The notes: generated by a model not told the origin, from the sequence alone. A stretch of 64,000 nt of DNA from Planctomycetota bacterium (GCA_024274785.1 JAJSAM010000035.1:85613-149612), one strand, 5' to 3'. Numbered from the stretch's first letter, positions 4,355 to 48,990 are shown. Made by a program: numbers and translations.

Positions 4355-4364
4355 GGGGGGGGGG
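4355..4364. repeat. G10 homopolymeric tract 44 bp upstream of AmmeMemoRadiSam operon start
   Basis: acaaGGGGGGGGGGcggg read directly in the sequence. Confidence 0.9.
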
Positions 4365-8082: not shown

Positions 8083-8152
8083 CAGCGCTCTCCAGCCGCA
8101 ATGGAGGGTCGACCTCCGGGCGACCGTGCCGGCGGTCCGGGAGCGTCACGTG
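8083..8152 (+). repeat. Dispersed intergenic repeat, copy B (shorter)
   Basis: agcgctctccagccgcaATGGAGGGTCGACCTCCGGGCGACCGTGCcGGCgGTCCGGgagCGTCAcgtgg, beginning 7 bp after the AKR stop. Confidence 0.8.
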
Positions 8153-24278: not shown

Positions 24279-24492
24279 GACGGGCCAAGGTTACCATCCA
24301 GAGCCGGGGAACCGGCATCGCCCCCCGGGCGGGGCTCGCCCGGCCGACAAGCAACCCGACGCGCACTGTTACCTCTCGAGCAGGCAAAGCCACTCCCCTG
24401 AAGCAGGTGGAAACGGTGGCGGTCTCCTGCGAGACTGCTCTGTGGCTGAGCCGGATGGACTTGCGGAGGGAAGGGATGGGAGGATCCTGGAA

Positions 24493-27400
24493 GTGCCACT
24501 GACCAAGAAGTTGCTCTTCGACCTCGAGATCGACCGGAGGGGAGGGATTCGGCAGATCGGTGCGGTGCTCGACCGGGTGGAGTTCTATCGTGAGGTGTCC
24601 GGTAGCCCCGGGGCGGCGCTCGCGGAGTTGGATGCCTTCGCCCGGGGGGCGGCGTGCGTGCTCGGGCACAACGTCCTCGCGCACGATCTCCCGCATCTTC
24701 TGCGGGTGGCGCCGAACCTTCGGCTTCTGAAGCTGCCGGTGGTCGATACCCTTTTTCTCTCCCCTCTGGCCTTTCCCGAGAACCCCTATCACAGCCTGGT
24801 GAAGGACTACAAGCTGCTCTCCGCCTCGCTGAACGACCCCGTGGCGGATGCGCGGCTCGCCGGTCGGGCATTCTCCGAGCAATGGGAGGCCCTGGCCCTT
24901 GTCGCGACGGGTACTCCTCCGCTCATGGATCTCCTGCAGTTCTGTTTCCAGGGCGTCTCCTTCGTGGAGGGCGGCAGCGGGGACGGCATCGCCCGGGTCT
25001 TCTGCTCCCTCGCTGGCAGGCAGCCCCACGACGCGATCAATGCCGACAAAGCACATCAGATCTTCGCCGACCAGGCGCGGGATCTGTGTTGCCGGAGTGC
25101 GATCAACGAAGTTGGACGGGAGCTGATCGACGACGCCGTCCGGCGGCCCGAACTCGCCTTCATCGCCAGTTGGCTCCGGGTGGCCGGTGCGAAGTCGGTG
25201 TTACCGTCGTGGGTGCGGCATCGGTTCCCCGGTATCCGGACTGCCATCCACCGACTTCGCGATGCTCCCTGCGGCAACTCGGAGTGTTGCTACTGCAAGG
25301 GCACCCAGGATCCCGAGGAGCAGCTGAGACGGTTCTTCAAGTTCGACGGCTTCCGCTTGACCGGGGGCAAGCCGCTCCAACGGAAGATTGTGCTTGCGGG
25401 AATGCGCAACGAATCGCTGGTCGCCCTTCTGCCCACCGGTGGAGGCAAGTCCCTCAGCTTTCAACTCCCCGCCCTCGTGCGATACGTCCGACGCGGTGCG
25501 CTGACCGTCGTGATCTCGCCGCTGCAGGCGCTGATGAAGGACCAGGTGGAAGGTCTCGTCAAACGAACCGGCTCGCCCCACGCCGGTGCGATCTACGGGA
25601 TGCTCACCCCTCCTGAACGCCGCGAGCAACTTGAGCGCATCCGGCTCGGGGACACCGCGATCGTCTACGTCTCCCCGGAACAACTGCGCAACCGTTCGTT
25701 CCGGCAGACCATCCTCTCCCGAGAGATCGGTTGCTTCGTCTTCGATGAAGCCCACTGCATTTCGAAGTGGGGCCACGACTTCCGGCCGGACTACTTCTAT
25801 GCTTCCCGCTTCGTCCGTGAACTGGCCTCCGAGCAGGGCACGGAGATCCCGCCCGTGGCCTGTTTCACCGCCACGGGAAAACCGGACGTGATCGAGGAGA
25901 TCAAGGACCACTTCCGCACCGTCCTCGGCCACGAACTGGAGGAGTTCCGGGGACCCATCGCCCGTGAGGAGCTCGTCTACTCGGTGCGGGACACCACCGG
26001 GCCGCAGAAACTCGAGCAGGTGGCCGGCGTGCTTCGCGAGAAGCTCTTTTCGAACGGAGGTGGCGCGGGGATCGTGTACCGGGCCACCCGGAAGCGGACG
26101 GAGGAGACCGCCGAGTACCTGAAGAAGCGCGGGATCGTCGCCCGGGCGTTCCACGCCGGTCTCCGGGCGCCGACGAAACGCGAAGTCCAGGACGAGTTTC
26201 TCGCGGGAAAGGTGCCGGTGATCTGCGCCACCAACGCATTCGGCATGGGGATCGACAAGTCCGATGTCCGGGTGGTGGTGCATGCGGACATCCCGAGGTC
26301 GATCGAGAGTTACCTGCAGGAGGCTGGCCGCGCCGGCCGCGACCGCAAGCGGGCCGACTGCATCCTGCTCTTTGATGAGCACGACGTCGAGACGCAGTTC
26401 CGCCTGGCAGCTTTCGGAAAGATCACCCGGCACGATATCGTGCAGATCCGCCGCGCCGTGAAACGTGCCACTGATCGGCAGAAGGGGGCGGCCGTGATCA
26501 CTACCGGGGAGCTTCTGCGGGATCAGTATCTTGAGACTTCCATCGACGCGGAGGATCGCTCCGCGGACACCAAGGTAAAGATGGCGCTGTCCTGGCTCGA
26601 GCGGGCCGGATTCCTCGAGCGTAACGAGAACCGAACGACTGTTTTCCAGGGTGTGCCCCGGGTGAAGGACCTGGAGGAGGCCCGGTTGAAGATCAGCAGC
26701 AAGCAGGTTCCGGAGCAGACGGCGAGGCGGTGGATCGCCGTCCTCGAAGCGCTCCTCAACGCCGACCCGGATCAGGCGTTGACCTTTGACCAACTCGCGG
26801 GGCACCGGGCCTACGAGCATTTCTGGGCGACCTGTGACGGCACGATCGTGACCCGCCAGGTCCGCAAGGATCTCCATGAGATGGCTGAGGTCGGGCTGAT
26901 CGACCAGGGGCTCGTCTTCAGTGCGTTCGTCCGTCCCAGAGGGCAGAGGACTTCGAAGCGTCTCTTCGAGCAGGCGAGGGATAGCGAGGTCAGTCTGCTC
27001 GACCTGATCAGGAAGACCGCTCCCGACGCGGAACAGGGACAGTGGCAACTCCTCGAATTAAACAAGCTGCATCAGAGGCTCAAGTCCGGTGATACCGACT
27101 GCAGTCCGGAATCGATCCGGCTCCTCCTGAAGAGCTTGAGCATGGATGGGCGGGGCCTGGCCGGGAGCGGAGGCAGCCTGGAACTGGCGCAGACCTCACG
27201 GTTTCGCTATCGCGTGAAGGTCTCCCGAAAGTGGGACGCCCTCGAGGCGACCGCGAAGATCCGCCGTGAGGTCGCGTGGAAGGCACTGGCGGTGATGCTT
27301 GAAAAAGCGAAGCACGTTGGGGAGGAGGAGCAGCTCGTCTCGTTCACCGCGGCAGAGGTCGTGGCGGCAATTCACAAGGATCCCGCACTCGCCCGCAAGG

Positions 27401-29676
27401 TGAAGAGCCCCTTGGATGCCGTCGACCGCGGGCTGATGTTTCTCCACGAGCAGGGTTCGATCATCCTGCGCCAGGGCCTTGCGGTGTTCCGGCAGGCCAT
27501 GACCATCGAACTCTCGAAGGAGATGAGGGGGAGAACCTACTCGAAGAAGCACTACGACGCCCTCGATCGCCATTACGGAGAGCGCGTCGCGCAGGTCCAT
27601 GCCATGAACGAGTACGCCCGCCTGGCGCTGAAAGAACAGCGGGCGGCCGATCGATTCGTCAACGACTGCTTCAGCCTTGAGCGCGATGCGTTCTTCACGA
27701 AGTACTTCGGGGATCGGCAGGAGGTGCTGCGTCGGGCGACGGGGGTTGAGTCCTACCACCGGATCGTCACCGGGCTCGAGAACGACCACCAGATCGAGGT
27801 GGTGACCGCTCCCCTCGAGGGGAACATGCTGGTCCTGGCGGGACCGGGTTCCGGCAAGACCCGCGTGGTGGTGCACCGCTGCGCCTTCCTGCTCAGAGTT
27901 CAGAGAGTGCGTCCGGAGGAAGTGCTGATCCTCTGCTTCAATCACAACGCCGCGGTGGAGCTCCGAAAGAGGCTTGGCGACCTGATCGGCATGGACGCGC
28001 GAGGTGTCACCGCGCTGACCTACCACGGCCTGGCCATGCGGATCACCGGGACCTCGTTTGCGGAAAGGGCGGAATGCGATCAGGACGGGGAGATCAAGTT
28101 CGATGAGATCCTGCAGGACGCGGTGCGGCTGATCCGGGGGGATGTCGAGATCCCCGGGATCGAGCCCGACCAGGTGCGGGAGCGCCTGCTGGCCGGGTAC
28201 CGCTACCTGCTGGTGGACGAGTATCAGGATATCGACGAAGTGCAGTACGAGTTGGTCTCGGCGATCGCCGGCCGAACAGAGCAGGACGGGGAGAACAGAC
28301 TCCGGATTCTCGCGGTGGGGGACGACGACCAGAACATCTACACCTGGCGCGGCGCGGACGTGAGCTTCCTTCGGCGGTTCGAGGAGGACTATCAGGCCAG
28401 ACGGTTCCGACTGCTCCACAACTACCGCTCCTCGAAGAACATCATCGAAGTGTCCAACCGCTTCATCGCCACGAACCCTGGTCGCTTGAAAGTTTCCGAT
28501 CCCATCCGGGTCAACGAGCAGCGGGTGCTCTACGCGGCGGGGGGGCGCTGGGAGGGCCTGGATCCGGTCTCGCGGGGCCGGGTGAGGCAGATCATCATTT
28601 CGAGTCCGGCGGAAGAGGCTTCGGCGATCGTGGCAGAACTGCGTCGGGTGAAGGAGTTGGACTCCAATACCTCCTGGCATGAATTCGCCGTCCTGGCCCG
28701 GACCCGGAATACCCTGCAGCCGATCCGGTCGCTCCTCACGCACTACGGGATCCCCGTCTCGCTGGTGGTGCCGCGCGAGCAGGCCCCGCCCCTCAACCGC
28801 ATCCGCGAGATCGAGACATTGCTCAATTCGCTGAGGGAGAAGGCGGAGCAGAGTGTCCGGCCGACGGAGCTGCTGAAAGATGTCCACCGCGATCTCAAGA
28901 TGCGGCCCGGGCACTACTGGCTCGACCTCCTTCGCGAACTGCTGACGGCGTTCAAGGAGGAAACCTCGAACGCGGATCAGCCCCGCGGCCATGCGGTGGA
29001 GTATCTGTACGAGGCCCTCGTGCAGCGGCGCCGCGAGAGCCGGATCGGCGCGGGTGTCTACCTCGGGACCGTGCACTCGGCCAAGGGGATGGAGTTTCAG
29101 CACGTGATCATCCCCGCGACCGGTTGGGCGGAGTTGCGGGAAGATGCCACCGTGGGCGAGGAGCGCCGGACCTTCTATGTCGGCATGACTCGCGCGAGGG
29201 AGATGCTGACCGTGATCCACTGCCCCGGACTGTCTCCGTCCCACGTCGGACTGGTGGATGGCAAGGAGATCCTGTCCACCGGGCCGGCGGAGCAAGCGGC
29301 GGTGCCCGAGGGGATCCTCACGCGCCGGTACGAGGCCCTCGGCCTTTCCGACCTCTTCATCGACCTCGCCGGGCAGCGGGCCGCGTCGGACCCCATACAC
29401 AACGCGCTGATGCACCTGGATTGCGGATCGAGACTCACCGTGCGGGAGCAGTCCGGGAACGTGGTGCTCCTCGATGGGGGTGGATGCCCGGTCGCCAGGC
29501 TTTCGGCCTCGGCGAAGGAGCGCTGGCTGGCCCGGCTTCGGGATGTCGAATCAGTGTGCGTGCTGGCGATGATCAAGCGGCGACGTGGGGACACCGGTGA
29601 GGAGTACGAGGACCGCATGCGCGTCGATGCGTGGGAAGTCCCGTTCTGCGAGCTGATCTACCGGGAGCAGTGCTGA
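24493..29676 (+). CDS. Three-module DNA helicase/nuclease: DnaQ-like 3'-5' exonuclease, RecQ-family helicase, long linker, UvrD/PcrA-family helicase (1727 aa)
   Basis: Exo I motif (LLFDLEID) at N-terminus. RecQ motifs (LLPTGGGKSLSFQLPAL, VVISPLQALMKDQV, FVFDEAHCISKWGHDFRPDY, ATNAFGMGIDKSDVRVVVH, QEAGRAGRD). UvrD motifs (LVLAGPGSGKTRVVVHRCAFLL, LLVDEYQDIDEVQYELV, VGDDDQNIYTWRGADV, HNYRSSKNIIE, GTVHSAKGMEFQHVII, VGMTRAREML). GTG start at 24493 preceded by GGGAGGA RBS. The track ORF extends upstream without support. Confidence 0.85.
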   Translation: MPLTKKLLFDLEIDRRGGIRQIGAVLDRVEFYREVSGSPGAALAELDAFARGAACVLGHNVLAHDLPHLLRVAPNLRLLKLPVVDTLFLSPLAFPENPYHSLVKDYKLLSASLNDPVADARLAGRAFSEQWEALALVATGTPPLMDLLQFCFQGVSFVEGGSGDGIARVFCSLAGRQPHDAINADKAHQIFADQARDLCCRSAINEVGRELIDDAVRRPELAFIASWLRVAGAKSVLPSWVRHRFPGIRTAIHRLRDAPCGNSECCYCKGTQDPEEQLRRFFKFDGFRLTGGKPLQRKIVLAGMRNESLVALLPTGGGKSLSFQLPALVRYVRRGALTVVISPLQALMKDQVEGLVKRTGSPHAGAIYGMLTPPERREQLERIRLGDTAIVYVSPEQLRNRSFRQTILSREIGCFVFDEAHCISKWGHDFRPDYFYASRFVRELASEQGTEIPPVACFTATGKPDVIEEIKDHFRTVLGHELEEFRGPIAREELVYSVRDTTGPQKLEQVAGVLREKLFSNGGGAGIVYRATRKRTEETAEYLKKRGIVARAFHAGLRAPTKREVQDEFLAGKVPVICATNAFGMGIDKSDVRVVVHADIPRSIESYLQEAGRAGRDRKRADCILLFDEHDVETQFRLAAFGKITRHDIVQIRRAVKRATDRQKGAAVITTGELLRDQYLETSIDAEDRSADTKVKMALSWLERAGFLERNENRTTVFQGVPRVKDLEEARLKISSKQVPEQTARRWIAVLEALLNADPDQALTFDQLAGHRAYEHFWATCDGTIVTRQVRKDLHEMAEVGLIDQGLVFSAFVRPRGQRTSKRLFEQARDSEVSLLDLIRKTAPDAEQGQWQLLELNKLHQRLKSGDTDCSPESIRLLLKSLSMDGRGLAGSGGSLELAQTSRFRYRVKVSRKWDALEATAKIRREVAWKALAVMLEKAKHVGEEEQLVSFTAAEVVAAIHKDPALARKVKSPLDAVDRGLMFLHEQGSIILRQGLAVFRQAMTIELSKEMRGRTYSKKHYDALDRHYGERVAQVHAMNEYARLALKEQRAADRFVNDCFSLERDAFFTKYFGDRQEVLRRATGVESYHRIVTGLENDHQIEVVTAPLEGNMLVLAGPGSGKTRVVVHRCAFLLRVQRVRPEEVLILCFNHNAAVELRKRLGDLIGMDARGVTALTYHGLAMRITGTSFAERAECDQDGEIKFDEILQDAVRLIRGDVEIPGIEPDQVRERLLAGYRYLLVDEYQDIDEVQYELVSAIAGRTEQDGENRLRILAVGDDDQNIYTWRGADVSFLRRFEEDYQARRFRLLHNYRSSKNIIEVSNRFIATNPGRLKVSDPIRVNEQRVLYAAGGRWEGLDPVSRGRVRQIIISSPAEEASAIVAELRRVKELDSNTSWHEFAVLARTRNTLQPIRSLLTHYGIPVSLVVPREQAPPLNRIREIETLLNSLREKAEQSVRPTELLKDVHRDLKMRPGHYWLDLLRELLTAFKEETSNADQPRGHAVEYLYEALVQRRRESRIGAGVYLGTVHSAKGMEFQHVIIPATGWAELREDATVGEERRTFYVGMTRAREMLTVIHCPGLSPSHVGLVDGKEILSTGPAEQAAVPEGILTRRYEALGLSDLFIDLAGQRAASDPIHNALMHLDCGSRLTVREQSGNVVLLDGGGCPVARLSASAKERWLARLRDVESVCVLAMIKRRRGDTGEEYEDRMRVDAWEVPFCELIYREQC

Positions 29677-31844: not shown

Positions 31845-32330
31845 ATGCTCTACCGCGTCAAGGAGAAGTTCTGGTCCTGGGGAAACGACTTTTCGATCAC
31901 GGACGCCGACGGCAAACCCTGCTTCCTGGTCGACGGCGCCGCGTTCTCCTGGGGCGACGACCTTTCGGTGCAGGATCCCGACGGGCGCGAGCTGGCCCGG
32001 ATCACTCAGAAGCTGTTCTCCTTCATGCCTCGCTACCGCATCTACATCGGTGGAGAGTTTTTCGCGGAGGTCATCAAGGAGTGGACCTGGTTCAAGAAGA
32101 ACTTCACTCTGGATGTTCCGGGCCCGAACGATTACGCGATCGAGGGCTCGTTCTGGGAGCACGAGTTCGAGTTCGTGCGCGGCCGCCACGTGGTCGCTCG
32201 AGTGAGCAAGGACTACTGGAACTGGACGGACAGCTACGGCGTTTCGATCGAGGAAGGCGAAGACGACATCTCGATCATCTGCGCCTGCATCGTCATCGAC
32301 CAGGTCCTGCACGACGACAAGAACGACTGA
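31845..32330 (+). CDS. LURP-one-related (LOR/DUF567) tubby-C-terminal-like protein
   Basis: 161 aa. MLYRVKEKFWSWGNDFSITDADGKPCFLVDG...YRIYIGGEFFAEVIKEWTWFKKNFTLD: typical LOR/scramblase-like beta-barrel pattern. Confidence 0.6.
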   Translation: MLYRVKEKFWSWGNDFSITDADGKPCFLVDGAAFSWGDDLSVQDPDGRELARITQKLFSFMPRYRIYIGGEFFAEVIKEWTWFKKNFTLDVPGPNDYAIEGSFWEHEFEFVRGRHVVARVSKDYWNWTDSYGVSIEEGEDDISIICACIVIDQVLHDDKND

Positions 32331-32350: not shown

Positions 32351-32379
32351 GCAATCTGAATTCCACATATTCAGATTGC
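32351..32379 (+). terminator. Perfect 11-bp AT-rich inverted repeat (hairpin) downstream of the LOR gene
   Basis: GCAATCTGAAT-tccacat-ATTCAGATTGC. No U-tract follows. Lies at the left edge of the lower-GC island. Confidence 0.3.
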
Positions 32380-32389
32380 GGAGAGCCAT

Positions 32390-32497
32390 CATCAAATCGC
32401 CGTGCACGCCGCCGTCACAGAAATACATCTGACGCTCCCGGACCGCCAGCACGGTCGCCCAGAGATCGACCCTCCATTGCGGCTGGGCCGCGCTGTG
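32390..32497 (-). repeat. Dispersed intergenic repeat, copy D (reverse orientation)
   Basis: Reverse complement of ...gccagcacggtcgcccagagatcgaccctccattgcggctgggccgcgctgtg matches copies A-C, including the tail (gtcacagaaatacatctgacgctcccggaccgcc vs rc of copy A). Confidence 0.8.
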
Positions 32498-32623
32498 GCG
32501 GTAGGAATCTGATCACGGCGAGCTTCACCCGGTCGGTCCCAACTCCGGGTCTTGGTCGCATCCATACGATCGCTTGACACGGTCCCATGCTGTGCTCCAA
32601 TGAGAGATGAGAGGAGCATTGGG

Positions 32624-33649
32624 ATGAGTGTCGGACCGAGGGTGCCTCCGGAAGTTTGCGGACTTCTCCGGGCGATCGAATGTTCTCTGGCCGGGAACGA
32701 GACGTACCTTGATGCCTGGTACCGAACGAAGCGTGTAAGCCTCGGGCGTACGCTCTATTCCTGGACGAGAAAAAGCCAATCTGCAGATGAGATCCTTCAG
32801 GCCATCCTGATCGCTGCGCTGCACGCGTCACGCGCGCGGACCACCGTGAAAAACGAGGCGGGGTGGATGTCTCGCGTCGCCGCGAATACCCTCGCAGACA
32901 TCAGGCGCGAGGATCGCCTTCGCAGATGCCAGTCCCATGAATTGTGCGACCTGCCCGATGAATCGAGTCTGGCCGACCCTTTCCGGGTCATCGCCGCAAA
33001 GGACGCCTTGTGCCGTATGATCATCATTGCCGCAACTTTCGGATCACCGGAGCGCGAAGCACTTCTGCTTCGTCTCAAATACCGTTGGGACCAGGGAGAG
33101 ATCGACCTATGGCTCACGAACTGGCTCGGGATAGGCAAAGACCGGGCTCGCAAGATCAGACGGAGTGGCCGGAAACTGCTGCGGAAGGTGGTTTCCGGCA
33201 AGTGCGCTGGGCGGGTTGGTCCTCGGCACAGAGTTTTGACGCCCCCCCCCCCCGTTTTCCTGACTAATACTACAGTCAAGCCGCGACCTCATGAAACGCC
33301 GAAGTCTCGGCAGATCGCAGAGGCCGCAAACCAAAGGAGGAAGGGATGGGAGTCTCCGTCAAGTCTGTATTGCTCGCCGCATTGCTCTACGTGTGCATCT
33401 TTGCGCTCGCCCAGCAGGTTGAGGCGACGGAATGCACCGGGGTTGGGCAAAACCGCAAGAGTTCCTTGGACCAATTCGGCAGTTGTCCCTCCAACGAAGA
33501 CTGGTGCTGCACCTTTGCACGCTTCGAGGGCCTCGGTGTCCCGGACAGTGCGAGTTGCGACCCGGTGGAGCGGTCAGCGACTCTGGATAATCCTGATCCC
33601 AACCAGAACAGCATTGACCCGATGCTTTCCAACGAGGTACCTACCGTGA
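32624..33649 (+). CDS. Divergent ECF-like sigma-70 family protein; true 3' end uncertain (C12 tract at 33242-33253)
   Basis: Strong RBS (GAGGAG) before ATG 32624. Region-2-like (ADEILQAILIAALHASRAR) and region-4-like (SPEREALLLRLKYRWDQGEIDLWLTNWLGIGKDRARKIRRSGRKLLRKV) segments. Several Cys (CGLLRAIEC, CQSHELC). After the polyC (PPPP) the frame runs a further about 130 codons overlapping the next gene and looks non-coding. A tract of C11 or C13 would terminate within 5 codons. Confidence 0.5.
   Translation: MSVGPRVPPEVCGLLRAIECSLAGNETYLDAWYRTKRVSLGRTLYSWTRKSQSADEILQAILIAALHASRARTTVKNEAGWMSRVAANTLADIRREDRLRRCQSHELCDLPDESSLADPFRVIAAKDALCRMIIIAATFGSPEREALLLRLKYRWDQGEIDLWLTNWLGIGKDRARKIRRSGRKLLRKVVSGKCAGRVGPRHRVLTPPPPVFLTNTTVKPRPHETPKSRQIAEAANQRRKGWESPSSLYCSPHCSTCASLRSPSRLRRRNAPGLGKTARVPWTNSAVVPPTKTGAAPLHASRASVSRTVRVATRWSGQRLWIILIPTRTALTRCFPTRYLP
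33242..33253. repeat. C12 homopolymeric tract inside the 3' end of the ECF-like sigma ORF
   Basis: gaCCCCCCCCCCCCgttttcc read directly in the sequence. Confidence 0.9.
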
Positions 33650-33798
33650 TTACACACTACGGTTCAGGGATCGGCCACCAGTGGGTCGTTAAGGTGTGCG
33701 GACCGGCGGGAATCCCAGTCCACATCACCGTTTCGTTCCGCAATTCGTTCGGACTATCGACAGCCTCTTGGGCGATCATTATTAAACCAGAGTGCTGA
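33346..33798 (+). CDS. Secreted cysteine-rich small protein (150 aa)
   Basis: Strong RBS (AAAGGAGGAAGGGATG). Signal peptide (MGVSVKSVLLAALLYVCIFALAQQVEA). Mature part has 8 Cys (TECTG...GSCPSNEDWCCTFARF...SCDP...VCGP...PEC). Lower-GC region. Confidence 0.65.
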   Translation: MGVSVKSVLLAALLYVCIFALAQQVEATECTGVGQNRKSSLDQFGSCPSNEDWCCTFARFEGLGVPDSASCDPVERSATLDNPDPNQNSIDPMLSNEVPTVITHYGSGIGHQWVVKVCGPAGIPVHITVSFRNSFGLSTASWAIIIKPEC

Positions 33799-33864
33799 GC
33801 ATTTTCATGGCGATTGAAGATGTGCCATTCCCCGGCCATTTGCATTCCCGGAAGGTCGCCTCAA

Positions 33865-36339
33865 ATGACGAATTCGAGATGGCTGCTATTGGTGATCTCA
33901 ATCGCCATAGTTTGCGCGGCAGTTGGCGCACTATCCGTCGATAATGAAGCCAAACCGCCGCACCAGGTGGTCGAAAGCTACGCCTCGTCTGAGGTCAAGG
34001 AACTCCCAACTGTCGAGAGGGCGCAGGCTGCAAATGGCGTGGGGATTGATGTCCAGCCACCACTGCAGCACGGCGAAGAAATCAAGGCAACCTGGCTGAT
34101 CGGGGGTGTAGATCGCCAGGTTGCCGCAGTGCCCTCTGTTGCTGGGCTGGATCACATCGATCTACCGTATCCTTCAGAAACGCCAGAGTCGCTGACTCTC
34201 GCGCGGGATGGATTCGCTTCCGCCCGGATCGATCACACGGTGAACGGTGGGCGGTACGCTGTTGAGTTCGTACGCTGCGGTTCGGCGTTGGTCTGCGTAG
34301 AATCCACCACTGGAGCATACGACCCGGAAACTGCCGCCGTTCGCCTCGAGTGCAATGGCCTTCGCCATTCCCCGGTTGAACAGCATGGTGGGGAGTTCAG
34401 GTTTGAAGATCTGTCTCCCGGTCGATATGGGGTCGATCTCGACCCGGACGGTTCTGGCTTCATCACTTTCGGGTATCTCCCCGTTAACGCAGGACAGCCA
34501 TCGAGATTCGGCATCGACCTCCGGGGGCAGTCTGACATTGCCGGGCGGATCCTCATGCACGGTAGACCGCTTGCGGATTCCAGCGCGCTTACCGTGAGGA
34601 TGACGGAAGCTCAACTGAAGGTGGCAAGGCCCCAGTATGTACTCCCCGTGAATCCGGATGGGTCGTTTCAGGGCCAGGTGCGGCGGGGCGACTACTCGGT
34701 CACGGTGGTGAGAGGCGAGCAACTGGTCGGGACTTTCGCCTGGATGGTGTCAACCAGGGAGGAGAGCCGGGACTTTGACCTGGCGGAGGTTCTCCGGGTC
34801 TCGGGGCGAATTCTGGATGCCGAGGGGCAAACACTTCCGAACGTGGACCTGGTCTTCGCGGAGCCCCGAGAGGGTGGAGGAGTTCACAGCTGTCGGAGCG
34901 ATGATTCGGGCGAGTTCAGAGCACTTCTTCCCGCTGGAGTGCGCCACAGTGTTCAGATTCGGGGGAAGTCTTTCGGAGTGATGACCCTGGGTTCCATCAC
35001 TCTCACCGAGGACACGACGATCGACTTTCAGATTCCATGCGGAAGCAAGGTGCATGGCCGGATTTCTTCCGCAAATGGTGAACCTCTGGCCGGTGTCATC
35101 ATCAGTCTGATGAACTGGCGGGTGCGTACGGGAGATTCTGGTGAGTTCGAGATTGCGGATGTGCCCGCCGGTCGATTCAAGATCTACGCCTACAGACAAC
35201 CTGGCAACATTCTCATCAATTTCAGTGATCTGATTGTAGTGGGTGGGGAAGACCTTTGGTTGGAACTCGTGGAGGATCTTCCCCCAGCGGGGTTTGTCGC
35301 CGGGAAGGTGGTTTCTGCCGACGGAAAGCCGATATCGGGTATCCGAGTTCAGGCCGCGGGTGTCGCCGGCGGGCTGACCGGATGCATCACGAAGCGCGAC
35401 GGGAAGTTCAAGTTCAAGGTTCACGGTGATGTGGTCAATGTGTGGGCAAATGGCCCGGAGGAGAAGGGGCTTTGCAGGGCGGTGGCCAAGGTACCGCTCG
35501 GGACTCAGGATATCGTTCTGGTTCTCCTGGCCCCGGTCGAGTTGAAATTCGTGTTCATGCTGGATCAGAAGCGATTCTTGGGCCCGATTGACGGTCTGTT
35601 GGCGCTCAAGGATGAGAGTGGTAAGTCAACTGCGTTGGGAGTGGGCTCATCTGCGAGGGCCATGGAACGTTTCCGGCGCATACCCGCAGGTCGCTATAGG
35701 ATGATGTTCCTGTTCAGTCAGTCATTTGCGAACACCGACTGGTTCGAGGTCGACCTCCGGGAGAGTCAACGCTCGGAGGTGCAGGTTGAACTGGTGGCCG
35801 GTTCGCAGCCTGCGCTTGATTTCGATTCGCCATTCTCCGGCAGGTTCGCCGTGCGGTCCGGAGATGGGCGGATTGTGTACGCCGTGGATCTGCTCAACGC
35901 CAGGTCATCATTCCGGATTGGCCGGATCCTCCCGGCCGGGAGCTACGAGGTGCTTGCGTTCTCCCGATACGGTGAGGTTGCAGTGGGTCAGCTCGAGGTT
36001 CTCGCCGACCACTCTGAACCGGTCTCCTGGGAGGTCTTTCGGGGCAGTATCCAGATCAAGGTGATGGATGCGGCCGGGAACCCCGTGGTCGGTCGGCGGA
36101 TCCGGGTCTGTGCGGCTGAGAACTGCCGGGACGTGCCCCTGGGCATCGCTGTGGAGAAGTTGCAGATGGGCTCCGTCCTTACGGAGCGACAAGCACTGAC
36201 CGACGATGGAGGACGATGTTGTTTCGCGGGGCTGCTTCCGGCGAGCTACGTCCTTACCGGCCATGGAGGAGATGCGGTAACCGTCATCGTTGGCGAGGGA
36301 GATGCCAGCCACCCTGCGGTACTCCTCACATGCGAATGA
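33865..36339 (+). CDS. N-terminally anchored 824-aa protein made of carboxypeptidase-regulatory-like (CarbopepD_reg/Ig-like) beta-sandwich repeats
   Basis: TM/signal anchor (WLLLVISIAIVCAAVGALSV). Repeated about 80-90-aa units with G-x-hydrophobic motifs, e.g. GRISSANGEPLAGVIISLMNWRVRTGDSGEFEIADVPAGRFKIYA and GKVVSADGKPISGIRVQAAG...DGKFKFKV. ATG 33865 has GGAAGG RBS. The track ORF start at 33814 is TTG. Confidence 0.65.
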   Translation: MTNSRWLLLVISIAIVCAAVGALSVDNEAKPPHQVVESYASSEVKELPTVERAQAANGVGIDVQPPLQHGEEIKATWLIGGVDRQVAAVPSVAGLDHIDLPYPSETPESLTLARDGFASARIDHTVNGGRYAVEFVRCGSALVCVESTTGAYDPETAAVRLECNGLRHSPVEQHGGEFRFEDLSPGRYGVDLDPDGSGFITFGYLPVNAGQPSRFGIDLRGQSDIAGRILMHGRPLADSSALTVRMTEAQLKVARPQYVLPVNPDGSFQGQVRRGDYSVTVVRGEQLVGTFAWMVSTREESRDFDLAEVLRVSGRILDAEGQTLPNVDLVFAEPREGGGVHSCRSDDSGEFRALLPAGVRHSVQIRGKSFGVMTLGSITLTEDTTIDFQIPCGSKVHGRISSANGEPLAGVIISLMNWRVRTGDSGEFEIADVPAGRFKIYAYRQPGNILINFSDLIVVGGEDLWLELVEDLPPAGFVAGKVVSADGKPISGIRVQAAGVAGGLTGCITKRDGKFKFKVHGDVVNVWANGPEEKGLCRAVAKVPLGTQDIVLVLLAPVELKFVFMLDQKRFLGPIDGLLALKDESGKSTALGVGSSARAMERFRRIPAGRYRMMFLFSQSFANTDWFEVDLRESQRSEVQVELVAGSQPALDFDSPFSGRFAVRSGDGRIVYAVDLLNARSSFRIGRILPAGSYEVLAFSRYGEVAVGQLEVLADHSEPVSWEVFRGSIQIKVMDAAGNPVVGRRIRVCAAENCRDVPLGIAVEKLQMGSVLTERQALTDDGGRCCFAGLLPASYVLTGHGGDAVTVIVGEGDASHPAVLLTCE

Positions 36340-36788
36340 GCAGGAGCATCCACCTGGCGATTTCGTTGACCCAGAGAGTGGTTGGAGTCCTTCTGATCTA
36401 CTCGGGTGTCGCCAAGACGGTCCTGCCGGAAGCCAGGTGTGGATTCGGCGCGGTCGTCCGCTCGCTCAATCTTCCGGACTCCATGCGGGCCGTGCTGCAG
36501 AGCGGACTCGGGCCCCTCGAGGTTGCCGTCGGGATCTGCCTGCTGGTCGGTTTCCTGCGCAAGGTCCATCTGAGTGTGAGCGTCTGCCTCATGGCCGCCT
36601 TCGTGGGCGCTACTGCCATGCAGAGCGCTTCGGGCTTCCAGGACAGGGCGTGCGGGTGCGGGCTGGGCATTGCGGTGAGTGTCGGCGCAGCTCTGGTACG
36701 CAACTCGATCCTGCTTGCGCTACTCTGCGGCTGCCTGCTGCACGAGTTCTGGGCGGGGAGGTCTCCGGTGCAGCTTTCAGGATCTTGA
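36330..36788 (+). CDS. MauE/DoxX-family membrane protein
   Basis: About 150 aa, 4 predicted TM. LTQRVVGVLLIYSGVAKTVLPE matches the MauE/DoxX N-terminal helix pattern. Overlaps the stop of the upstream gene (ATGA at 36336). Confidence 0.55.
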   Translation: MRMSRSIHLAISLTQRVVGVLLIYSGVAKTVLPEARCGFGAVVRSLNLPDSMRAVLQSGLGPLEVAVGICLLVGFLRKVHLSVSVCLMAAFVGATAMQSASGFQDRACGCGLGIAVSVGAALVRNSILLALLCGCLLHEFWAGRSPVQLSGS

Positions 36789-36813
36789 GGAGGCGCTTGA
36801 CGGACCTGGCCAC

Positions 36814-39845: not shown

Positions 39846-40365
39846 ATGGGCTCCGTGCGGCGACTCCCCCATTGTCTTCGAACGGTCGTTCGGAATCAAT
39901 GTAAGGGGCCGCGCAAGAATACTTCGCAGGACGGAGAGCGCTGATGCGTCCGCCCGGCAAGACGCGAGGAGGGCGCAACCATACTGGTTTCAACAGACGA
40001 GCAACGCGGCTCAAGGGGATGCGGCTGTCCGTGATCTGAGGGGCGGCTGCGGTGCATCGAGGCGGGTCCGGCCGTCACCGTCGATCCGGGTGCGGAAAGC
40101 GAGGATGATTCCGGAATCCGAAGTTCTCAGAAAAACTCCGGAATCTGTGCAACCCACCCACCCGGTTTAACGACTTCTGGGGTGACGGAGCAGAGTTCCG
40201 CTGGATGAAGGGTTACCCGGCGGGGGGGAAGAAGCTCTGTCATCGACCCGGAGGCAAGGGGAGATTGGGCCTTAGGGCCTCCGAAGCGGGCGAGTGTGGC
40301 CGACCCTGACGCCGAGCCGGCGTGCCACCTCGCACCGGACCGGATTACCCGGTATCCTCACCCCC

Positions 40366-41925
40366 ATGTCCACCTGGCAAAAGGACATCCGTGTGCCCCT
40401 TCCGGACGGGACCTGGCTGGCGGGGGATCTCGCCCTGCCCGACGGGGACGGTCCGTTTCCATCGGTCCTCATCCAGAGCCCCTACGGCAAGGAGCGGCTC
40501 GGGGCGGCCCTGCCACGCGAGTCGGCGCGGACCTGGCTCGACTTCTGGGATCGGGATCGGTACGCGCTGCTGATCGTCGACTGGCGAGGGTTTCATGGTT
40601 CGGCTCCGGCCGGTGGATCCGGGGCACGGAAGCCGGCGCATCGGGGTGAGGACGGCGTGGCGGTCCTGTCGTGGATGGCGTTGCAACCGTGGAGCAACGA
40701 GCGAGTGGCCGCCTGGGGACCGTCGGCACTCGGTCGGGCGGTCCTTCGCACCGCGGCGCAGCAGCCCTTGCCCCTCGTCTGCGGGATCCCGCTCGTCTGC
40801 CACATGGGGCACTTCTACGATGACCTCTACGAGGGAGGCGTGCTCGAGGAATCCCACGATCGATCGATCCGCGCACTCGGCTTCGGCCTCCCCGACTCCG
40901 TCCGGGACGAGCCGTATTCCGGGACGCCCTTCTGGCGGGAGGGCGAGAAGGAGTGTCGGCCGGAGGACATCAACATCCCCCTCCTGCTGGTCACCGGATG
41001 GTTCGATCTCGTTACGGCCCGGACGCTTCGCTTCTTCTCGATGCTCCAGACGGTCGGCGGCCAGCGCGCGATGGCCCACTCGCGGCTCCTGGTCGGGCCC
41101 TGGCATCACACCGCCATCGACCACCGCCGCCAGGGCGGAATGAAGTTCCCCGGAGCGGCCGGGGCGGGCGCGAAGGAGATGCGCGACTTTCTCGCCCACT
41201 GGGTGCTCCGCGAGCAGGACCGCGGGTGGCCGGAGTTCACCGGAGTCCGGTACTGGCAGATGGGGGAGGAACGGTGGGTGGATGTGCCGAGTTGGCCGCC
41301 GAGAACGACCGACCGGACGCTACACCTCACTCCCGATGGCGGCCTGGCCGACGATCCGTCCGGGCGGGGCGAACTCTCCTTTACCGCCGACCCGGAGAAC
41401 CCGGTTCCCACCCGCGGCGGCGCGAACCTGCCCATGGGGCTGAAGGCCGGTCCCATCGACCAGCGTCCGCTCGAGGAGAGGGAAGACGTCCTGGTCTTCT
41501 CAACCGGACCGCTCGAAGAACCCGTCGCCATCACCGGCGCGGCGCGCGTCACCCTGACCGTGGTGACCGACGCCCCCGACTGCGACATCGCCGTTCGCCT
41601 GACCGACGTTCACGAAGACGGCCGGAGTATGCTCCTCGCCGACTCGATCCGCCGGGCGAAGCTCCGCGGCGGAACCGATCGTCCGATGCCGGTCACACCG
41701 GGGTTGCCGTTCGAGATCACGGTCACCCTGCCGCCCCTGGCCCAGACCTTCCTCCCCGGCCACCGCATTCGCATCTCGGTGGCGGGCTCCAACTGGCCGC
41801 GCTACGAGCGGAACGCCCACACCGGGGCGGATCACTTCGACGGGGGCGAGGCCTTCCCGGCGCAGATCACCCTGCGCTTCGGAACCGGTTCTCCCGCTCG
41901 CCTGGTCCTGCCCATCAAGCGCTGA
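40366..41925 (+). CDS. CocE/NonD-family (X-Pro dipeptidyl-peptidase S15-like) alpha/beta hydrolase
   Basis: IRVPLPDGTWLAGDLALPDG...PSVLIQSPYGKE...LLIVDWRGFHGS. C-terminal beta-sandwich domain. Start taken at MSTWQKD. Confidence 0.75.
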   Translation: MSTWQKDIRVPLPDGTWLAGDLALPDGDGPFPSVLIQSPYGKERLGAALPRESARTWLDFWDRDRYALLIVDWRGFHGSAPAGGSGARKPAHRGEDGVAVLSWMALQPWSNERVAAWGPSALGRAVLRTAAQQPLPLVCGIPLVCHMGHFYDDLYEGGVLEESHDRSIRALGFGLPDSVRDEPYSGTPFWREGEKECRPEDINIPLLLVTGWFDLVTARTLRFFSMLQTVGGQRAMAHSRLLVGPWHHTAIDHRRQGGMKFPGAAGAGAKEMRDFLAHWVLREQDRGWPEFTGVRYWQMGEERWVDVPSWPPRTTDRTLHLTPDGGLADDPSGRGELSFTADPENPVPTRGGANLPMGLKAGPIDQRPLEEREDVLVFSTGPLEEPVAITGAARVTLTVVTDAPDCDIAVRLTDVHEDGRSMLLADSIRRAKLRGGTDRPMPVTPGLPFEITVTLPPLAQTFLPGHRIRISVAGSNWPRYERNAHTGADHFDGGEAFPAQITLRFGTGSPARLVLPIKR

Positions 41926-42320
41926 GGATCTCCAGCCGGCGCCCGGCATGATGCGGTGCAGGAAGCAGTCCACTCCCCTGAAGACGCGGATCTCCTCCCC
42001 GCCCGCTCGGAGGGTCGAGCACCGTCTCGAGCAGTCACAACGCCGCACTGTTCGCGGCAGTTACGCCTGTGCCGGAGAACCTCGATCTCCTGAAGGTCGC
42101 TCCCAAAGCTGCTGCAACCGGCCAGGGTCCGGAGGGCGCGCCTTGCCGGACGGACGCAGCGGCGCTCTCCGTCCCGCGAGCTGTTTCCTGTGCGAGCCCG
42201 GAGCGGGATCATGTGGGCCGAGTCGCCTCAAACATTTGTTTGAATTTCGCCCGGATTTCCCGGCCGCTTGCCCCGGAGTGTGATAAACAGTTGTTTGAAA
42301 CGATCGATTGAGAGGTGGCG

Positions 42321-48690: not shown

Positions 48691-48886
48691 CGATACGGAG
48701 CGACGAACGCATGAACGAGGAGCCTCTCACGGTGGTGTTCCCGGGCGAGATGAGACCGGTTGAACCGCACTCCGCCTGGTTCGTCTTCGCGGTTCCTTCG
48801 GCGCATGATCACCTCCCGGGAGAGGAAGACGCATGAGATCAGCATGGGGCGCGGTAAAACCGGGGGAGAAGTGCCCTCGACTGTTC

Positions 48887-48990
48887 ACAGCGCGGCCCTG
48901 CCGCGATGGAGGGTCGATCTCCGGGCGACCGTGCTGGCAGTCCGGGAACGTCACGCAGGTTCTGCGAGTGCCGCGAAGGTTTTGAACGTC
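48887..48990 (+). repeat. Dispersed intergenic repeat, copy C
   Basis: acagcgcggccctgccgcgATGGAGGGTCGAtCTCCGGGCGACCGTGCTGGCAGTCCGGgaaCGTCAcgcaggttctgcgagtgccgcgaaggttttgaacgtc: full-length match to copy A. Confidence 0.85.

What the first reader, a model, noticed from the sequence alone, without database searches (positions are those of the whole stretch)
32500..36800. Lower-GC (about 55%) four-gene island: Cys-containing ECF-like sigma, secreted Cys-rich protein, giant CarbopepD_reg-repeat surface protein, MauE/DoxX
Composition falls sharply between about 32.5 and 36.4 kb relative to flanks. The island is bounded on the left by repeat copy D and the AT-rich hairpin. It encodes a highly divergent ECF-type sigma factor with an unusually strong RBS. 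It also encodes a 150-aa signal-peptide protein with 8 cysteines, an 824-aa N-terminally anchored protein built of about 7-8 beta-sandwich repeats, and a MauE/DoxX membrane protein (a family linked to disulfide/thiol chemistry of exported proteins). This looks like a horizontally acquired, self-regulated surface/secreted-protein system of unknown function.
Basis: partly seen in the sequence, partly recalled or inferred. Interest (0 to 1): 0.75.

Follow-up and report, generated by a model that had tools for sequence, protein, structure and literature searches.

The report
Rare sigma, secreted-protein and MauE operon
A planctomycete genome carries a compositionally foreign-looking four-gene operon: a divergent ECF-like sigma factor, a small cysteine-rich secreted protein of a new family, a long membrane-anchored beta-sandwich protein and its own disulfide-forming MauE enzyme; it is real and very rare, but built mostly from known parts.

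Summary
Window 32.57-36.79 kb has the lowest GC in the window: 59.7% against 66.2 +/- 1.2%. Third-codon-position GC (GC3) of the sigma, Cys-rich and 824-aa genes is 0.66-0.68 against 0.845 +/- 0.04, about 4 SD low. MauE is only mildly atypical.

All four genes are under purifying selection (dN/dS 0.17-0.63). The sigma is ECF-like but below curated thresholds. The 150-aa protein founds a tiny new family, with five members among 1.84 billion representative proteins. In two distant members its gene is also followed by an N-terminally anchored protein; one of these aligns to the 824-aa protein. MauE has the CGC motif at the reported active-site position and overlaps the 824-aa gene.

My reading: a lineage-restricted envelope module with a dedicated DsbB-like oxidase, possibly driven by its own sigma.

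Horizontal origin is plausible but unproven. There are no mobility genes and no empty site, and the right junction (PorB) is the same in a relative that is 84% identical.

It runs through a C12 tract that is C9 or at least C17 in relatives. A strongly conserved 92-nt leader follows the tract.

AlphaFold models failed.

The parts
32351..32379 (+). Perfect 11-bp hairpin (GCAATCTGAAT / ATTCAGATTGC, 7-nt loop) just after the LOR/YxjI-like gene. It is probably that gene's terminator and lies outside the conserved unit.
   Evidence: Read from the sequence. It was not flagged by the terminator scan because it has no T-run.
32430..32501 (-). It lies left of the unit and is not matched by a copy on the right.
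   Evidence: It is 88-93% complementary to the copies at 6269-6342, 8083-8150 and 48886-48955 (alignment). It has no Rfam match.
32571..32623 (+). Conserved upstream region of the sigma gene. It holds TTGACA (32574-32579), TCCAAT 16 nt downstream, and AGGAG 7 nt before the ATG. It also marks the left limit of homology with the relative L082.
   Evidence: 46 of 53 positions are identical to L082, and homology starts at 32571. The 64 nt upstream in L082 have no counterpart in the window. The promoter assignment is an inference; the consensus scan did not flag it.
32624..33649 (+). Divergent ECF-like sigma gene. The sigma-like part is 32624 to about 33241 (about 205 aa). As assembled, the ORF continues through the C12 tract for about 130 more codons into the next gene (341 aa in total).
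   Evidence: Pfam Sigma70_r2 gives E 0.003 and 17.7 bits, below the gathering score of 24. NCBIfam ECF models give E 7.5e-7 to 1e-3, far below their cut-offs. In the PDB search, M. tuberculosis SigL matches with E 7.5e-4 over residues 21-175, and CnrH with E 0.02. dN/dS is 0.49 against L082. The public 341-aa call P0007 is identical.
33242..33253 (+). C12 homopolymer tract at the end of the sigma-like coding part. Its length differs between lineages. One C more or less gives a stop in the TGACTAA that directly follows the tract.
   Evidence: The tract is C12 here, C9 in L082 and L083 (two independent samples), and at least 17 C at the broken start of contig L081. Runs of 12 or more expected by chance in this window: 0.14.
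33254..33345 (+). Conserved 92-nt leader between the poly-C tract and the cys150 start codon. It ends in a strong SD (AAGGAGG, 5 nt before the ATG).
   Evidence: It is 90-91% identical to L081 and L082, against 58% for the cys150-big824 spacer and dS of 0.27-0.39 in the genes. The binomial probability is 6e-5 to 2e-4. A 1-nt deletion in L081 argues against coding. The predicted pairing of poly-C/GUUUUCC with the SD and AUG has no covariation and z -1.1.
33346..33798 (+). cys150: a 150-aa secreted protein with a signal peptide (probable cleavage after VEA at residue 27). It has 8 Cys, of which 4 are invariant in the family, including the very last residue. It founds a new family with no Pfam, NCBIfam or PADLOC match.
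   Evidence: Searches found no family. The only homologues are P0005 (82%), P0006 (70%), P0009 and P0010 (about 28%), found in word-indexed and exhaustive searches. dN/dS is 0.39-0.63. C55 and C118 are lost together in P0010. The AlphaFold model is unusable (pLDDT 48).
33865..36339 (+). big824: an 824-aa protein with an N-terminal signal-anchor (or long signal peptide), followed by tandem CarboxypepD_reg/transthyretin-like beta-sandwich domains. Nine extracytoplasmic Cys are conserved, and the protein ends in ...LLTCE.
   Evidence: CarboxypepD_reg gives E 1.7e-34 and 118 bits. Domains are detected at about residues 157-219, 224-285 (weak), 312-389, 396-446, 478-520 and 728-800. A hydrophobic segment covers residues 1-28. 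The only orthologue is P0001 (81% identical, same length, same MTNSRW start). dN/dS is 0.27. There is no PDB sequence match.
36330..36788 (+). MauE-family membrane protein (152 aa) whose start overlaps the big824 stop codon (ATGcgaATGA). It is convergent with porB, 25 nt away.
   Evidence: PF07291 gives E 1.2e-16 and 61.6 bits, above the gathering score of 27. C108-G-C110 lies between the third and fourth hydrophobic segments. It is 88% identical in L081, with dN/dS 0.17. The overlap is read.

Best explanation
The region is a lineage-restricted accessory operon of a Pirellulaceae-type planctomycete, about 4.2 kb long (32571-36788).

Its conserved core is a two-gene envelope module:
- a small secreted protein of a new Cys-rich family (cys150);
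- directly downstream, a long protein held in the cytoplasmic membrane by an N-terminal hydrophobic segment, whose ectodomain is a string of transthyretin-like (CarboxypepD_reg) beta-sandwich domains (big824).

In this lineage the module carries two additions:
- Downstream is its own MauE, a four-helix membrane enzyme with a periplasmic CGC motif. It is translationally coupled to big824.
- Upstream is a very divergent ECF-type sigma factor with its own conserved promoter-like region.

Proposed mechanism:
1. The sigma, or housekeeping RNA polymerase acting at the TTGACA region, transcribes the four genes as one unit.
2. cys150 and big824 are exported by Sec.
3. MauE acts like DsbB. It takes electrons from their cysteines, directly or through a thioredoxin-fold partner encoded elsewhere, and passes them to quinone.
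4. This installs the 2-3 disulfides of cys150 and those of big824.
5. The folded proteins form a periplasmic or cell-envelope structure. cys150 probably binds or caps the extended beta-sandwich stalk.

What is shown: gene content and order; purifying selection; atypical codon usage; rarity; conservation of the cys150/anchored-protein pair in distant lineages; the MauE motif; the gene overlap.

What is inferred: co-transcription; sigma dependence; MauE acting on these two proteins; any physical complex; the final biological role.

The atypical composition together with the absence of mobility signatures fits an old acquisition that is now fixed next to the por operon.
For: Composition and codon usage:
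- GC is more than 5 SD below all other windows of the same size.
- GC3 and a CAI-like index are about 4 SD below 39 background genes for three of the four genes.

The genes are real:
- dN/dS is 0.49 for sigma, 0.39-0.63 for cys150, 0.27 for big824 and 0.17 for MauE.

Rarity:
- Among 5.8 billion clusters, big824 has one orthologue, cys150 two and the sigma one.
- An exhaustive profile search of 1.84 billion representatives adds only two distant cys150 relatives.
- Two metagenome scans and two plasmid searches found nothing.

The module is conserved:
- L081 carries cys150, big824 and MauE, followed by the PorB C-terminus.
- In L084 and L085 a ~28%-identical cys150 homologue is followed, 15 nt and 4 nt later, by an N-terminally anchored protein.
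- The L084 protein aligns collinearly to big824 residues 139-303 (hhalign probability 85%, E 6e-6).

MauE:
- Pfam score is above threshold.
- Its start overlaps the big824 stop.
- The preprint 10.64898/2026.03.05.709764 shows that two MauE proteins complement E. coli dsbB deletion, and that the CXC motif is required.

Disulfide logic:
- Four Cys are invariant in the cys150 family.
- C55 and C118 are lost together in P0010, as expected of a bonded pair.

Sigma:
- ECF-like motifs are visible (ADEILQAILIAA; GWMSRVAANTLADIRR; SPEREALLLRL).
- It matches SigL and CnrH in the PDB search and 22 NCBIfam ECF models weakly.

No terminator-like site lies inside the unit.
Against: - No transcript data exist, so the operon structure and sigma dependence are untested.
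- The sigma fails every curated threshold. No region-4 Pfam domain is detected, and as assembled the gene lacks a proper stop.
- No sigma gene is seen upstream of the two distant modules, although those contigs are very short.
- No thioredoxin-fold partner (DsbA or MauD) is in the unit.
- The Phe-Gly that usually follows the CXC motif is Gly-Leu-Gly here.
- MauE is less atypical in composition than the other three genes, so it might be native or of separate origin.
- Both structure predictions failed (pLDDT 48 and 34). Neither the fold of cys150 nor the domain count and Cys pairing of big824 could be checked.
- Low GC3 could reflect weak expression or relaxed selection rather than foreign origin.
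Confidence: 0.5

Rival explanations
1. The unit is a poly-C contingency (phase-variable) locus. Slippage in the C tract between the sigma-like coding part and cys150 switches the unit between states. It could do this in three ways:
(a) by setting where the sigma ORF stops: a normal ~210-aa sigma in two frames, or a 341-aa protein with a basic tail that is translated across the cys150 ribosome-binding site in the third frame;
(b) by changing the spacer between a TTGACG/TTAACG hexamer just before the tract and an ACTAAT/ACTAAC hexamer after it (18 nt with C9, 21 nt with C12);
(c) by changing the pairing of poly-C/GUUUUCC with the SD and AUG of cys150.
This adds a regulatory layer to the best explanation rather than replacing it.
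For: - Tract length is 12, 9, 9 and at least 17 in four assemblies, while the flanks are 90% conserved.
- TGACTAA follows the tract, giving stops in two frames.
- Runs of 12 or more expected by chance in this window: 0.14.
- The leader is under selection.
- RNAalifold pairs the tract with the SD and AUG region.
- One assembly breaks inside the tract.
Against: - No read-level evidence exists for variation within a population.
- Both fully assembled states (C12 and C9) are in the same frame.
- The two C9 assemblies come from different samples and agree, which suggests stability.
- Homopolymers are error-prone in sequencing.
- Other G/C runs of 8-10 occur in the window.
- The fold is not better than shuffled sequence (z -1.1) and shows no covariation.
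- The hexamers are my own reading and were not flagged by the scan.
- I found no report of phase variation in Planctomycetes.
Confidence: 0.2
2. There was no transfer. The four genes are native, fast-evolving, weakly expressed accessory genes, and relaxed codon selection explains their low GC3. The 'island' look is then an effect of selection regime, not of origin.
For: - dN/dS is high for sigma and cys150 (0.4-0.6).
- There is no integrase, tRNA or direct repeat, and no plasmid match.
- The right junction is the same in a relative that is 84% identical.
- Local synteny is poor throughout this family.
- The neighbouring LOR gene also changes context between relatives.
Against: - GC3 is shifted by about 4 SD in three adjacent genes, including the 824-codon gene that is under fairly strong constraint (dN/dS 0.27). 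No other gene among the 39 in the window is comparable.
- The strong SD sites and the extreme rarity in databases fit a foreign or very young origin better.
Confidence: 0.25
3. The sigma-like gene is a decaying or non-functional remnant, or not a sigma at all. The functional unit is then only cys150, big824 and MauE, expressed from a promoter in or after the 3' end of the sigma ORF.
For: - It scores below threshold on every model.
- It has no in-frame stop after region 4.
- dN/dS is relatively high at 0.49.
- The distant modules show no sigma immediately upstream.
- The leader and the 3' end of the sigma ORF are the most conserved DNA in the unit.
Against: - dN/dS is below 1 over 205 codons.
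- The ORF is intact in two lineages that are 18% diverged at the DNA level, and its upstream region and SD are conserved.
- The canonical region 2 and region 4 motifs are kept.
Confidence: 0.15
4. The unit is a mau-like quinoprotein system. cys150 would be a small, cross-linked, cofactor-bearing subunit like the MauA light chain, matured with the help of MauE, and big824 would be its large partner.
For: There is only an analogy: a small Cys-rich exported protein next to MauE, with conserved Trp residues (W53, W113).
Against: - cys150 and big824 match no MauA, MauB, MauD or MauG family, and the unit encodes no cytochrome or radical-SAM enzyme.
- Only about 10% of species with MauE also have MauA (preprint).
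- W53 and W113 are not invariant across the five family members.
Confidence: 0.03

Closest known systems
[quoted passage not shown]
   Same: A small membrane protein with four hydrophobic segments and a CGC motif in the loop between TM3 and TM4. It is encoded beside small Cys-rich exported proteins that need disulfides.
   Different: - No MauA, MauB, MauD or MauG is present, and no thioredoxin-fold partner is in the unit.
- The CXC motif is followed by Gly-Leu-Gly rather than Phe-Gly.
- The gene is translationally coupled to a giant beta-sandwich protein.
- Activity is untested.
ECF (group 4) sigma factors, such as M. tuberculosis SigL and C. metallidurans CnrH
   Same: Its size of about 205 aa, the two-domain region 2 and region 4 layout, recognisable region 2.1-2.4 and region 4 motifs, and its position at the head of an envelope-protein operon.
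   Different: - It scores below every curated threshold and cannot be placed in a described ECF group with the tools available here.
- No anti-sigma factor lies adjacent.
- The ORF ends in a poly-C tract and, as assembled, runs on into the next gene.
Multi-domain CarboxypepD_reg / transthyretin-like repeat proteins, such as eukaryotic NOMO (PF22904 is among the precomputed hits of the orthologues P0001 and P0002)
   Same: A single membrane anchor plus a long string of prealbumin-like beta-sandwich domains in an extracytoplasmic compartment.
   Different: - The anchor is N-terminal rather than C-terminal.
- The protein is bacterial.
- There is no detectable sequence relation beyond the domain family.
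- The idea that it acts as a spacer or stalk comes from my own knowledge and was not tested.
Homopolymeric-tract phase variation in promoters or ORFs, such as Neisseria opc/porA and Bordetella fim (from my own knowledge)
   Same: A G/C homopolymer of 9 to 17 or more bases at a gene boundary, with length differences between related lineages and frame-dependent stops.
   Different: Variation within a population has not been shown, the organism is a free-living planctomycete, and the target is a sigma gene and leader rather than a surface-antigen ORF.

Membership tests
ECF sigma factor (sigma-70 group 4) | Sigma-70 region 2 domain detected at family threshold | tested here: inconclusive
   PF04542 gives E 0.003 and 17.7 bits, below the gathering score of 24. 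TIGR02937 sigma70-ECF gives 16.3 bits against a cut-off of 42.9. The motifs DEILQAILIAA and WMSRVAANTLADIRR are visible.
ECF sigma factor (sigma-70 group 4) | Sigma-70 region 4 (helix-turn-helix that reads the -35 element) | tested here: inconclusive
   No Pfam r4 hit. The profile alignment to SigL (6dv9_F) extends through residues 122-175 onto its region 4, with E 7.5e-4. The SigZ model covers residues 46-195.
ECF sigma factor (sigma-70 group 4) | Adjacent cognate anti-sigma factor (common but not universal) | tested here: not met
   Neither downstream protein has a cytoplasmic anti-sigma domain. big824 has at most about 5 cytoplasmic residues, and the 17-codon upstream extension from the TTG start is not conserved in L081 or L083.
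ECF sigma factor (sigma-70 group 4) | Binds core RNA polymerase and directs transcription from a cognate promoter | not testable with these tools
   Needs biochemistry or transcriptomics.
MauE (PF07291), DsbB-like disulfide-forming protein | Family HMM above the gathering score | tested here: met
   61.6 bits against a gathering score of 27, E 1.2e-16, covering profile positions 4-127 of 128. The orthologue in L081 scores 62.6 bits.
MauE (PF07291), DsbB-like disulfide-forming protein | CXC motif (X is usually Gly) in the loop between TM3 and TM4 | tested here: met
   C108-G-C110 in FQDRACGCGLG lies between the hydrophobic segments at about residues 79-97 and 111-138. The criterion comes from the preprint.
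MauE (PF07291), DsbB-like disulfide-forming protein | Conserved Phe-Gly directly after the CXC motif | tested here: not met
   The sequence after the CGC is G-L-G.
MauE (PF07291), DsbB-like disulfide-forming protein | Conserved Lys on TM1 and Glu on TM2 (proposed quinone ligands) | tested here: inconclusive
   K28 (GVAKTV) and E63 (GPLEVAVG) lie at plausible positions. They were not aligned to the characterised proteins B8FLW7 and H1XRV2, which I could not fetch.
MauE (PF07291), DsbB-like disulfide-forming protein | Oxidase activity (complements dsbB deletion) and a thioredoxin-fold partner | not testable with these tools
   Needs an experiment. No thioredoxin-like gene lies in 32.3-36.8 kb.
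CarboxypepD_reg (PF13620) repeat protein | Several PF13620-type domains above the gathering score | tested here: met
   The whole protein scores 118.4 bits against a gathering score of 32.3, with 4 stretches. Scanning by fragment detects 5 such domains plus one weak DUF3823_N. Three fragments have no match.
Horizontally acquired genomic island | Composition and codon usage deviate from the host genome | tested here: met
   about 4-5 SD for three genes, and -1.5 to -2.4 SD for MauE.
Horizontally acquired genomic island | Mobility signatures (integrase or transposase, tRNA target, flanking direct repeats, or a plasmid or phage copy) | tested here: not met
   There is no tRNA, no boundary repeats, no mobility-gene domain in any of the four proteins and no plasmid match. 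The REP-like repeat is present on the left side only.
Horizontally acquired genomic island | Absent from the same site in close relatives (an empty site) | tested here: inconclusive
   - Eighty related genome loci share only the SPFH gene pair with the window.
- LOR homologues sit in other contexts.
- The PorB and PorA clusters have no long relative contigs.
- The only informative relative, L081, has the unit at the same porB junction.
Methylamine-utilisation (mau) cluster | MauA light chain, MauB heavy chain, MauD and MauG present | tested here: not met
   No such family hit in any island protein.
Anti-phage defence system | Match to a known defence protein model | tested here: not met
   PADLOC gave no hit for any of the five proteins tested.
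Phase-variable contingency locus | Homopolymer tract whose length differs between related lineages and alters frame or spacing | tested here: met
   C12, C9, C9 and at least C17. One C more or less gives stops in TGACTAA.
Phase-variable contingency locus | Length heterogeneity within a population, with an effect on expression | not testable with these tools
   Needs raw reads and reporter assays.

The most novel reading that the evidence does not exclude
The unit is a self-contained, phase-variable envelope organelle cassette. A hypermutable poly-C tract would toggle the C-terminus of a dedicated ECF-like sigma and the accessibility of the downstream ribosome-binding site. This would switch on or off a new two-protein periplasmic or surface structure (the cys150 family plus a beta-sandwich stalk) that brings its own MauE oxidase. 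It would be the first contingency locus described in Planctomycetes and the first substrate-dedicated MauE outside mau clusters.
Probability: 0.12. Interest if true: 0.65.

Novelty: new variant of a known kind. Interest (0 to 1): 0.38.

Why it matters
- It would give a concrete, testable case of MauE acting as a substrate-dedicated oxidative-folding enzyme. MauE has only just been shown to work like DsbB. Here it is encoded with, and translationally coupled to, its likely client proteins, in a phylum whose envelope biology is poorly understood.
- It defines a new small secreted protein family. The family has five members, four invariant Cys and a Cys as the last residue. Its gene is always followed by an anchored protein.
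- It flags errors in the public gene calls on the source contig. The cys150 gene is missing, the sigma is over-extended and big824 is truncated.
- The poly-C tract and the conserved leader form a compact candidate regulatory switch that could be checked directly in raw reads.

The biological role remains unknown and most of the parts are familiar, so the value is moderate.

Tried and rejected
- Empty-site and synteny test. Eighty genome loci were fetched around the SPFH flank gene. They share only the SPFH pair with the window. LOR-cluster relatives L086 and L087 sit in unrelated contexts. The PorB and PorA 90% clusters hold no useful contigs. No conclusion was possible.
- Metagenome scans. 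The scans with the cys150-family alignment and with the big824 alignment found nothing.
- Structure prediction. AlphaFold2 gave pLDDT 48 for cys150 and pLDDT 34 for big824. Both models are unusable, so no fold searches were run.
- PDB sequence search with big824 found nothing.
- Known-system and mobility checks all came back empty: Rfam, tRNA, PADLOC and plasmid tblastn.
- Dual coding in the sigma/cys150 overlap. Substitutions show no codon-position bias for either frame. L081 has a 1-nt deletion in the leader that breaks the read-through frame. I therefore rejected the tail as a conserved coding extension.
- An upstream ATG at about 33291 as a leader ORF or alternative cys150 start. Its frame differs between lineages, so I rejected it.
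- The TTG start at 33814 for big824, which would give a CH..C-containing N-terminal extension. The spacer is only 58% conserved and the orthologue starts at MTNSRW, so I rejected it.
- Consensus promoter scan: no hits in 31.7-37.0 kb. I found no convincing ECF-type (AAC...CGT) motif by eye.
- Literature searches linking ECF, MauE, CarboxypepD_reg proteins and Planctomycetes found nothing relevant. The one exception was the MauE preprint.


Full report

Composition
- The window averages 65.6% GC.
- The stretch 32571-36788 is 59.7% GC, against 66.1% on the left and 66.0% on the right.
- Windows of the same length that do not overlap it average 66.2 +/- 1.2%, with a minimum of 63.7%. The trough is therefore more than 5 SD deep and is the lowest in the window.

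Codon usage
- The drop is not an effect of amino-acid composition.
- Third-position GC (GC3) is 0.673 for sigma, 0.682 for cys150 and 0.664 for big824.
- For 39 other genes of the window it is 0.845 +/- 0.040, giving z of -4.1 to -4.5. A CAI-like index trained on those genes gives z of -3.9 to -4.2.
- MauE is only mildly atypical (GC3 0.784; z -1.5 and -2.4).
- The LOR/YxjI-like gene to the left has low total GC but native GC3 (0.88). The compositional unit therefore starts after it.

Left-border features
- A copy of a ~70-nt REP-like repeat lies at 32430-32501 on the minus strand. The three other copies in the window are on the plus strand.
- A perfect 11-bp hairpin lies at 32351-32379.

**2. 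What is encoded?**

Sigma
- Translation starts at the ATG at 32624, preceded by AGGAG.
- It scores below every curated threshold. Pfam Sigma70_r2 gives E 0.003 and 17.7 bits against a gathering score of 24. The 22 NCBIfam ECF models that match all fall far below their cut-offs.
- A two-sequence profile matches M. tuberculosis SigL over residues 21-175 (E 7.5e-4) and CnrH (E 0.02). The canonical region 2 and region 4 motifs are visible in those alignments.
- I accept 'ECF-like', but membership is not proven.

cys150 (33346-33798)
- It has a signal peptide and 8 Cys.
- It matches no family in Pfam, NCBIfam or PADLOC.

big824 (33865-36339)
- It has an N-terminal hydrophobic segment.
- CarboxypepD_reg scores 118 bits.
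- Scanning by fragment detects five such domains and one weak DUF3823_N. Three of the nine ~90-aa fragments match nothing.

MauE (36330-36788)
- It scores 61.6 bits against a gathering score of 27.
- Its start overlaps the big824 stop codon, in the sequence ATGcgaATGA.
- It is convergent with porB, 25 nt away. The por genes were confirmed.

**3.

- The sigma reading frame has no stop after region 4. It passes through a C12 tract (33242-33253) and stays open to 33649, overlapping cys150 by 304 nt.
- The public gene call for the source contig is this 341-aa ORF (P0007). On that same contig cys150 is not on record, and big824 appears only as a 594-aa truncation.
- One C more or less would end the protein within 3-5 codons, in the TGACTAA that follows the tract.
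- The tract is C9 in two independent assemblies of a related lineage (L082, L083). In a third lineage it is at least 17 C, and contig L081 breaks inside it.
- The tail is not conserved as coding sequence. L081 has a 1-nt deletion downstream of the tract, and substitutions in the overlap favour neither frame.
- The 92 nt between the tract and the cys150 ATG are 90-91% identical in both relatives. The next intergenic spacer is only 58% identical, and dS in the genes is 0.27-0.39. The binomial probability is 6e-5 to 2e-4.
- Together with the signal-peptide-coding DNA, this leader is the best-conserved block of the unit.
- RNAalifold pairs poly-C/GUUUUCC with the Shine-Dalgarno (SD) site and the AUG. 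There is no covariation, and the fold is no better than shuffled sequence (z -1.1).
- The leader is therefore a functional non-coding element of unknown mechanism. The tract is a candidate switch, not a demonstrated one.

**4. Relatives and distribution**

- Flank genes place the window in Pirellulaceae-like Planctomycetota. The SPFH proteins are at most 77% identical to those of metagenome-assembled genomes.
- Among 5.8 billion protein clusters, big824 has one orthologue (P0001, 81% identical, same length), cys150 has two and the sigma has one.
- An exhaustive profile search of 1.84 billion representatives adds only two ~28%-identical cys150 relatives, P0009 and P0010.
- Two metagenome scans and two plasmid searches found nothing.
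- L081 is 84% identical at the DNA level. It carries cys150, big824 and MauE, followed by the PorB C-terminus. The unit is thus at the same right junction in a different lineage.
- L082 carries the sigma and the start of cys150. Its homology with the window begins at 32571, just before a TTGACA.
- dN/dS is 0.49 for sigma, 0.39-0.63 for cys150, 0.27 for big824 and 0.17 for MauE. All four are real genes, and the first two evolve fast.

In both distant contigs, L084 and L085:
- the cys150 homologue is followed, 15 nt and 4 nt later respectively, by a protein with an N-terminal membrane anchor;
- the L084 protein aligns collinearly to big824 residues 139-303 (hhalign probability 85%, E 6e-6);
- no sigma gene is seen in the 300-355 nt upstream.

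The conserved core is therefore the pair of cys150 and the anchored protein.

**5. Mechanism**

- A 2026 preprint (10.64898/2026.03.05.709764) shows that MauE from two phyla complements E. coli dsbB deletion.
- The island MauE has C108-G-C110 in that position. It lacks the usual Phe-Gly after the motif.
- The cys150 family keeps four invariant Cys, including the very last residue. C55 and C118 are lost together in P0010, as expected for a disulfide pair.
- big824 keeps nine extracytoplasmic Cys between the two orthologues.

From these facts I infer the following. The unit exports two Cys-containing proteins. Its own, translationally coupled MauE oxidises them, possibly through a thioredoxin-fold partner encoded elsewhere. 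The products form an envelope structure in which the small protein associates with the beta-sandwich stalk. Sigma dependence is plausible but untested.

**6. Origin**

- Atypical codon usage, strong SD sites and extreme rarity favour a foreign origin.
- Against this, there is no integrase, tRNA or boundary repeat.
- No empty site could be found, because no sufficiently close genome with long contigs is available.
- If the unit was acquired, that happened before the window and L081 lineages split.

**7. Novelty and score**

- The domain families are known, and the MauE-plus-client logic echoes mau clusters.
- What is new is the cys150 family, the conserved pairing with an anchored protein, the dedicated MauE and the poly-C/leader element.
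- I rate it a new variant of a known kind, with interest 0.38.
- The failed structure predictions leave the fold of cys150 and the true domain count of big824 open.

Noticed in passing
window 32624-33798 (public gene calls for the source contig): The public gene calls on the 163,050-nt NCBI source contig appear wrong here. The sigma is called as a 341-aa read-through ORF. The cys150 gene is not on record. big824 is present only as a 594-aa truncation. The 152-aa MauE form is not on record.
   Followed up: partly
window 6269-6342, 8083-8150, 48886-48955 (+) and 32430-32501 (-): A dispersed intergenic repeat of about 70 nt (up to 120 nt for two copies), with a central GGAGGGTCGACCTCC palindrome. 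It looks like a REP element and has no Rfam match.
   Followed up: partly
window 39924-39966 and 42137-42179: A 43-nt inverted repeat (88% complementary) brackets the GC-rich (~70%) S15 X-Pro dipeptidyl-peptidase gene at 40294-41925.
   Followed up: no
window 23842-29676 (+): A 1944-aa ORF fuses a DEAD/Helicase_C module (about residues 510-835) with a UvrD-like helicase (about residues 1320-1795). This is an unusual giant double helicase.
   Followed up: no
window 31845-32330; L086, L087: The LOR/YxjI-like gene has native codon usage. Its 85%-identical relatives sit in quite different neighbourhoods: next to a ParE/RHH toxin-antitoxin pair in L086 and next to an AI-2E transporter in L087. The whole area seems to be a variable region.
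   Followed up: partly
window 4355-4364, 44338-44346, 60990-60997: Further G/C homopolymer runs (G10, G9, C8). About 3.8 runs of 9 or more are expected by chance, so these alone are unremarkable.
   Followed up: no
window 36726-36734 (MauE residues 133-135): MauE has a second CGC motif (LLCGCLL), lying inside the fourth hydrophobic segment, in addition to the loop CGC at residues 108-110.
   Followed up: no
L085 742-926: The anchored protein downstream of the distant cys150 homologue starts MNRTAQASRRWGLAAAA..., which resembles a twin-arginine (Tat) signal. The window's big824 has only a single Arg there.
   Followed up: no
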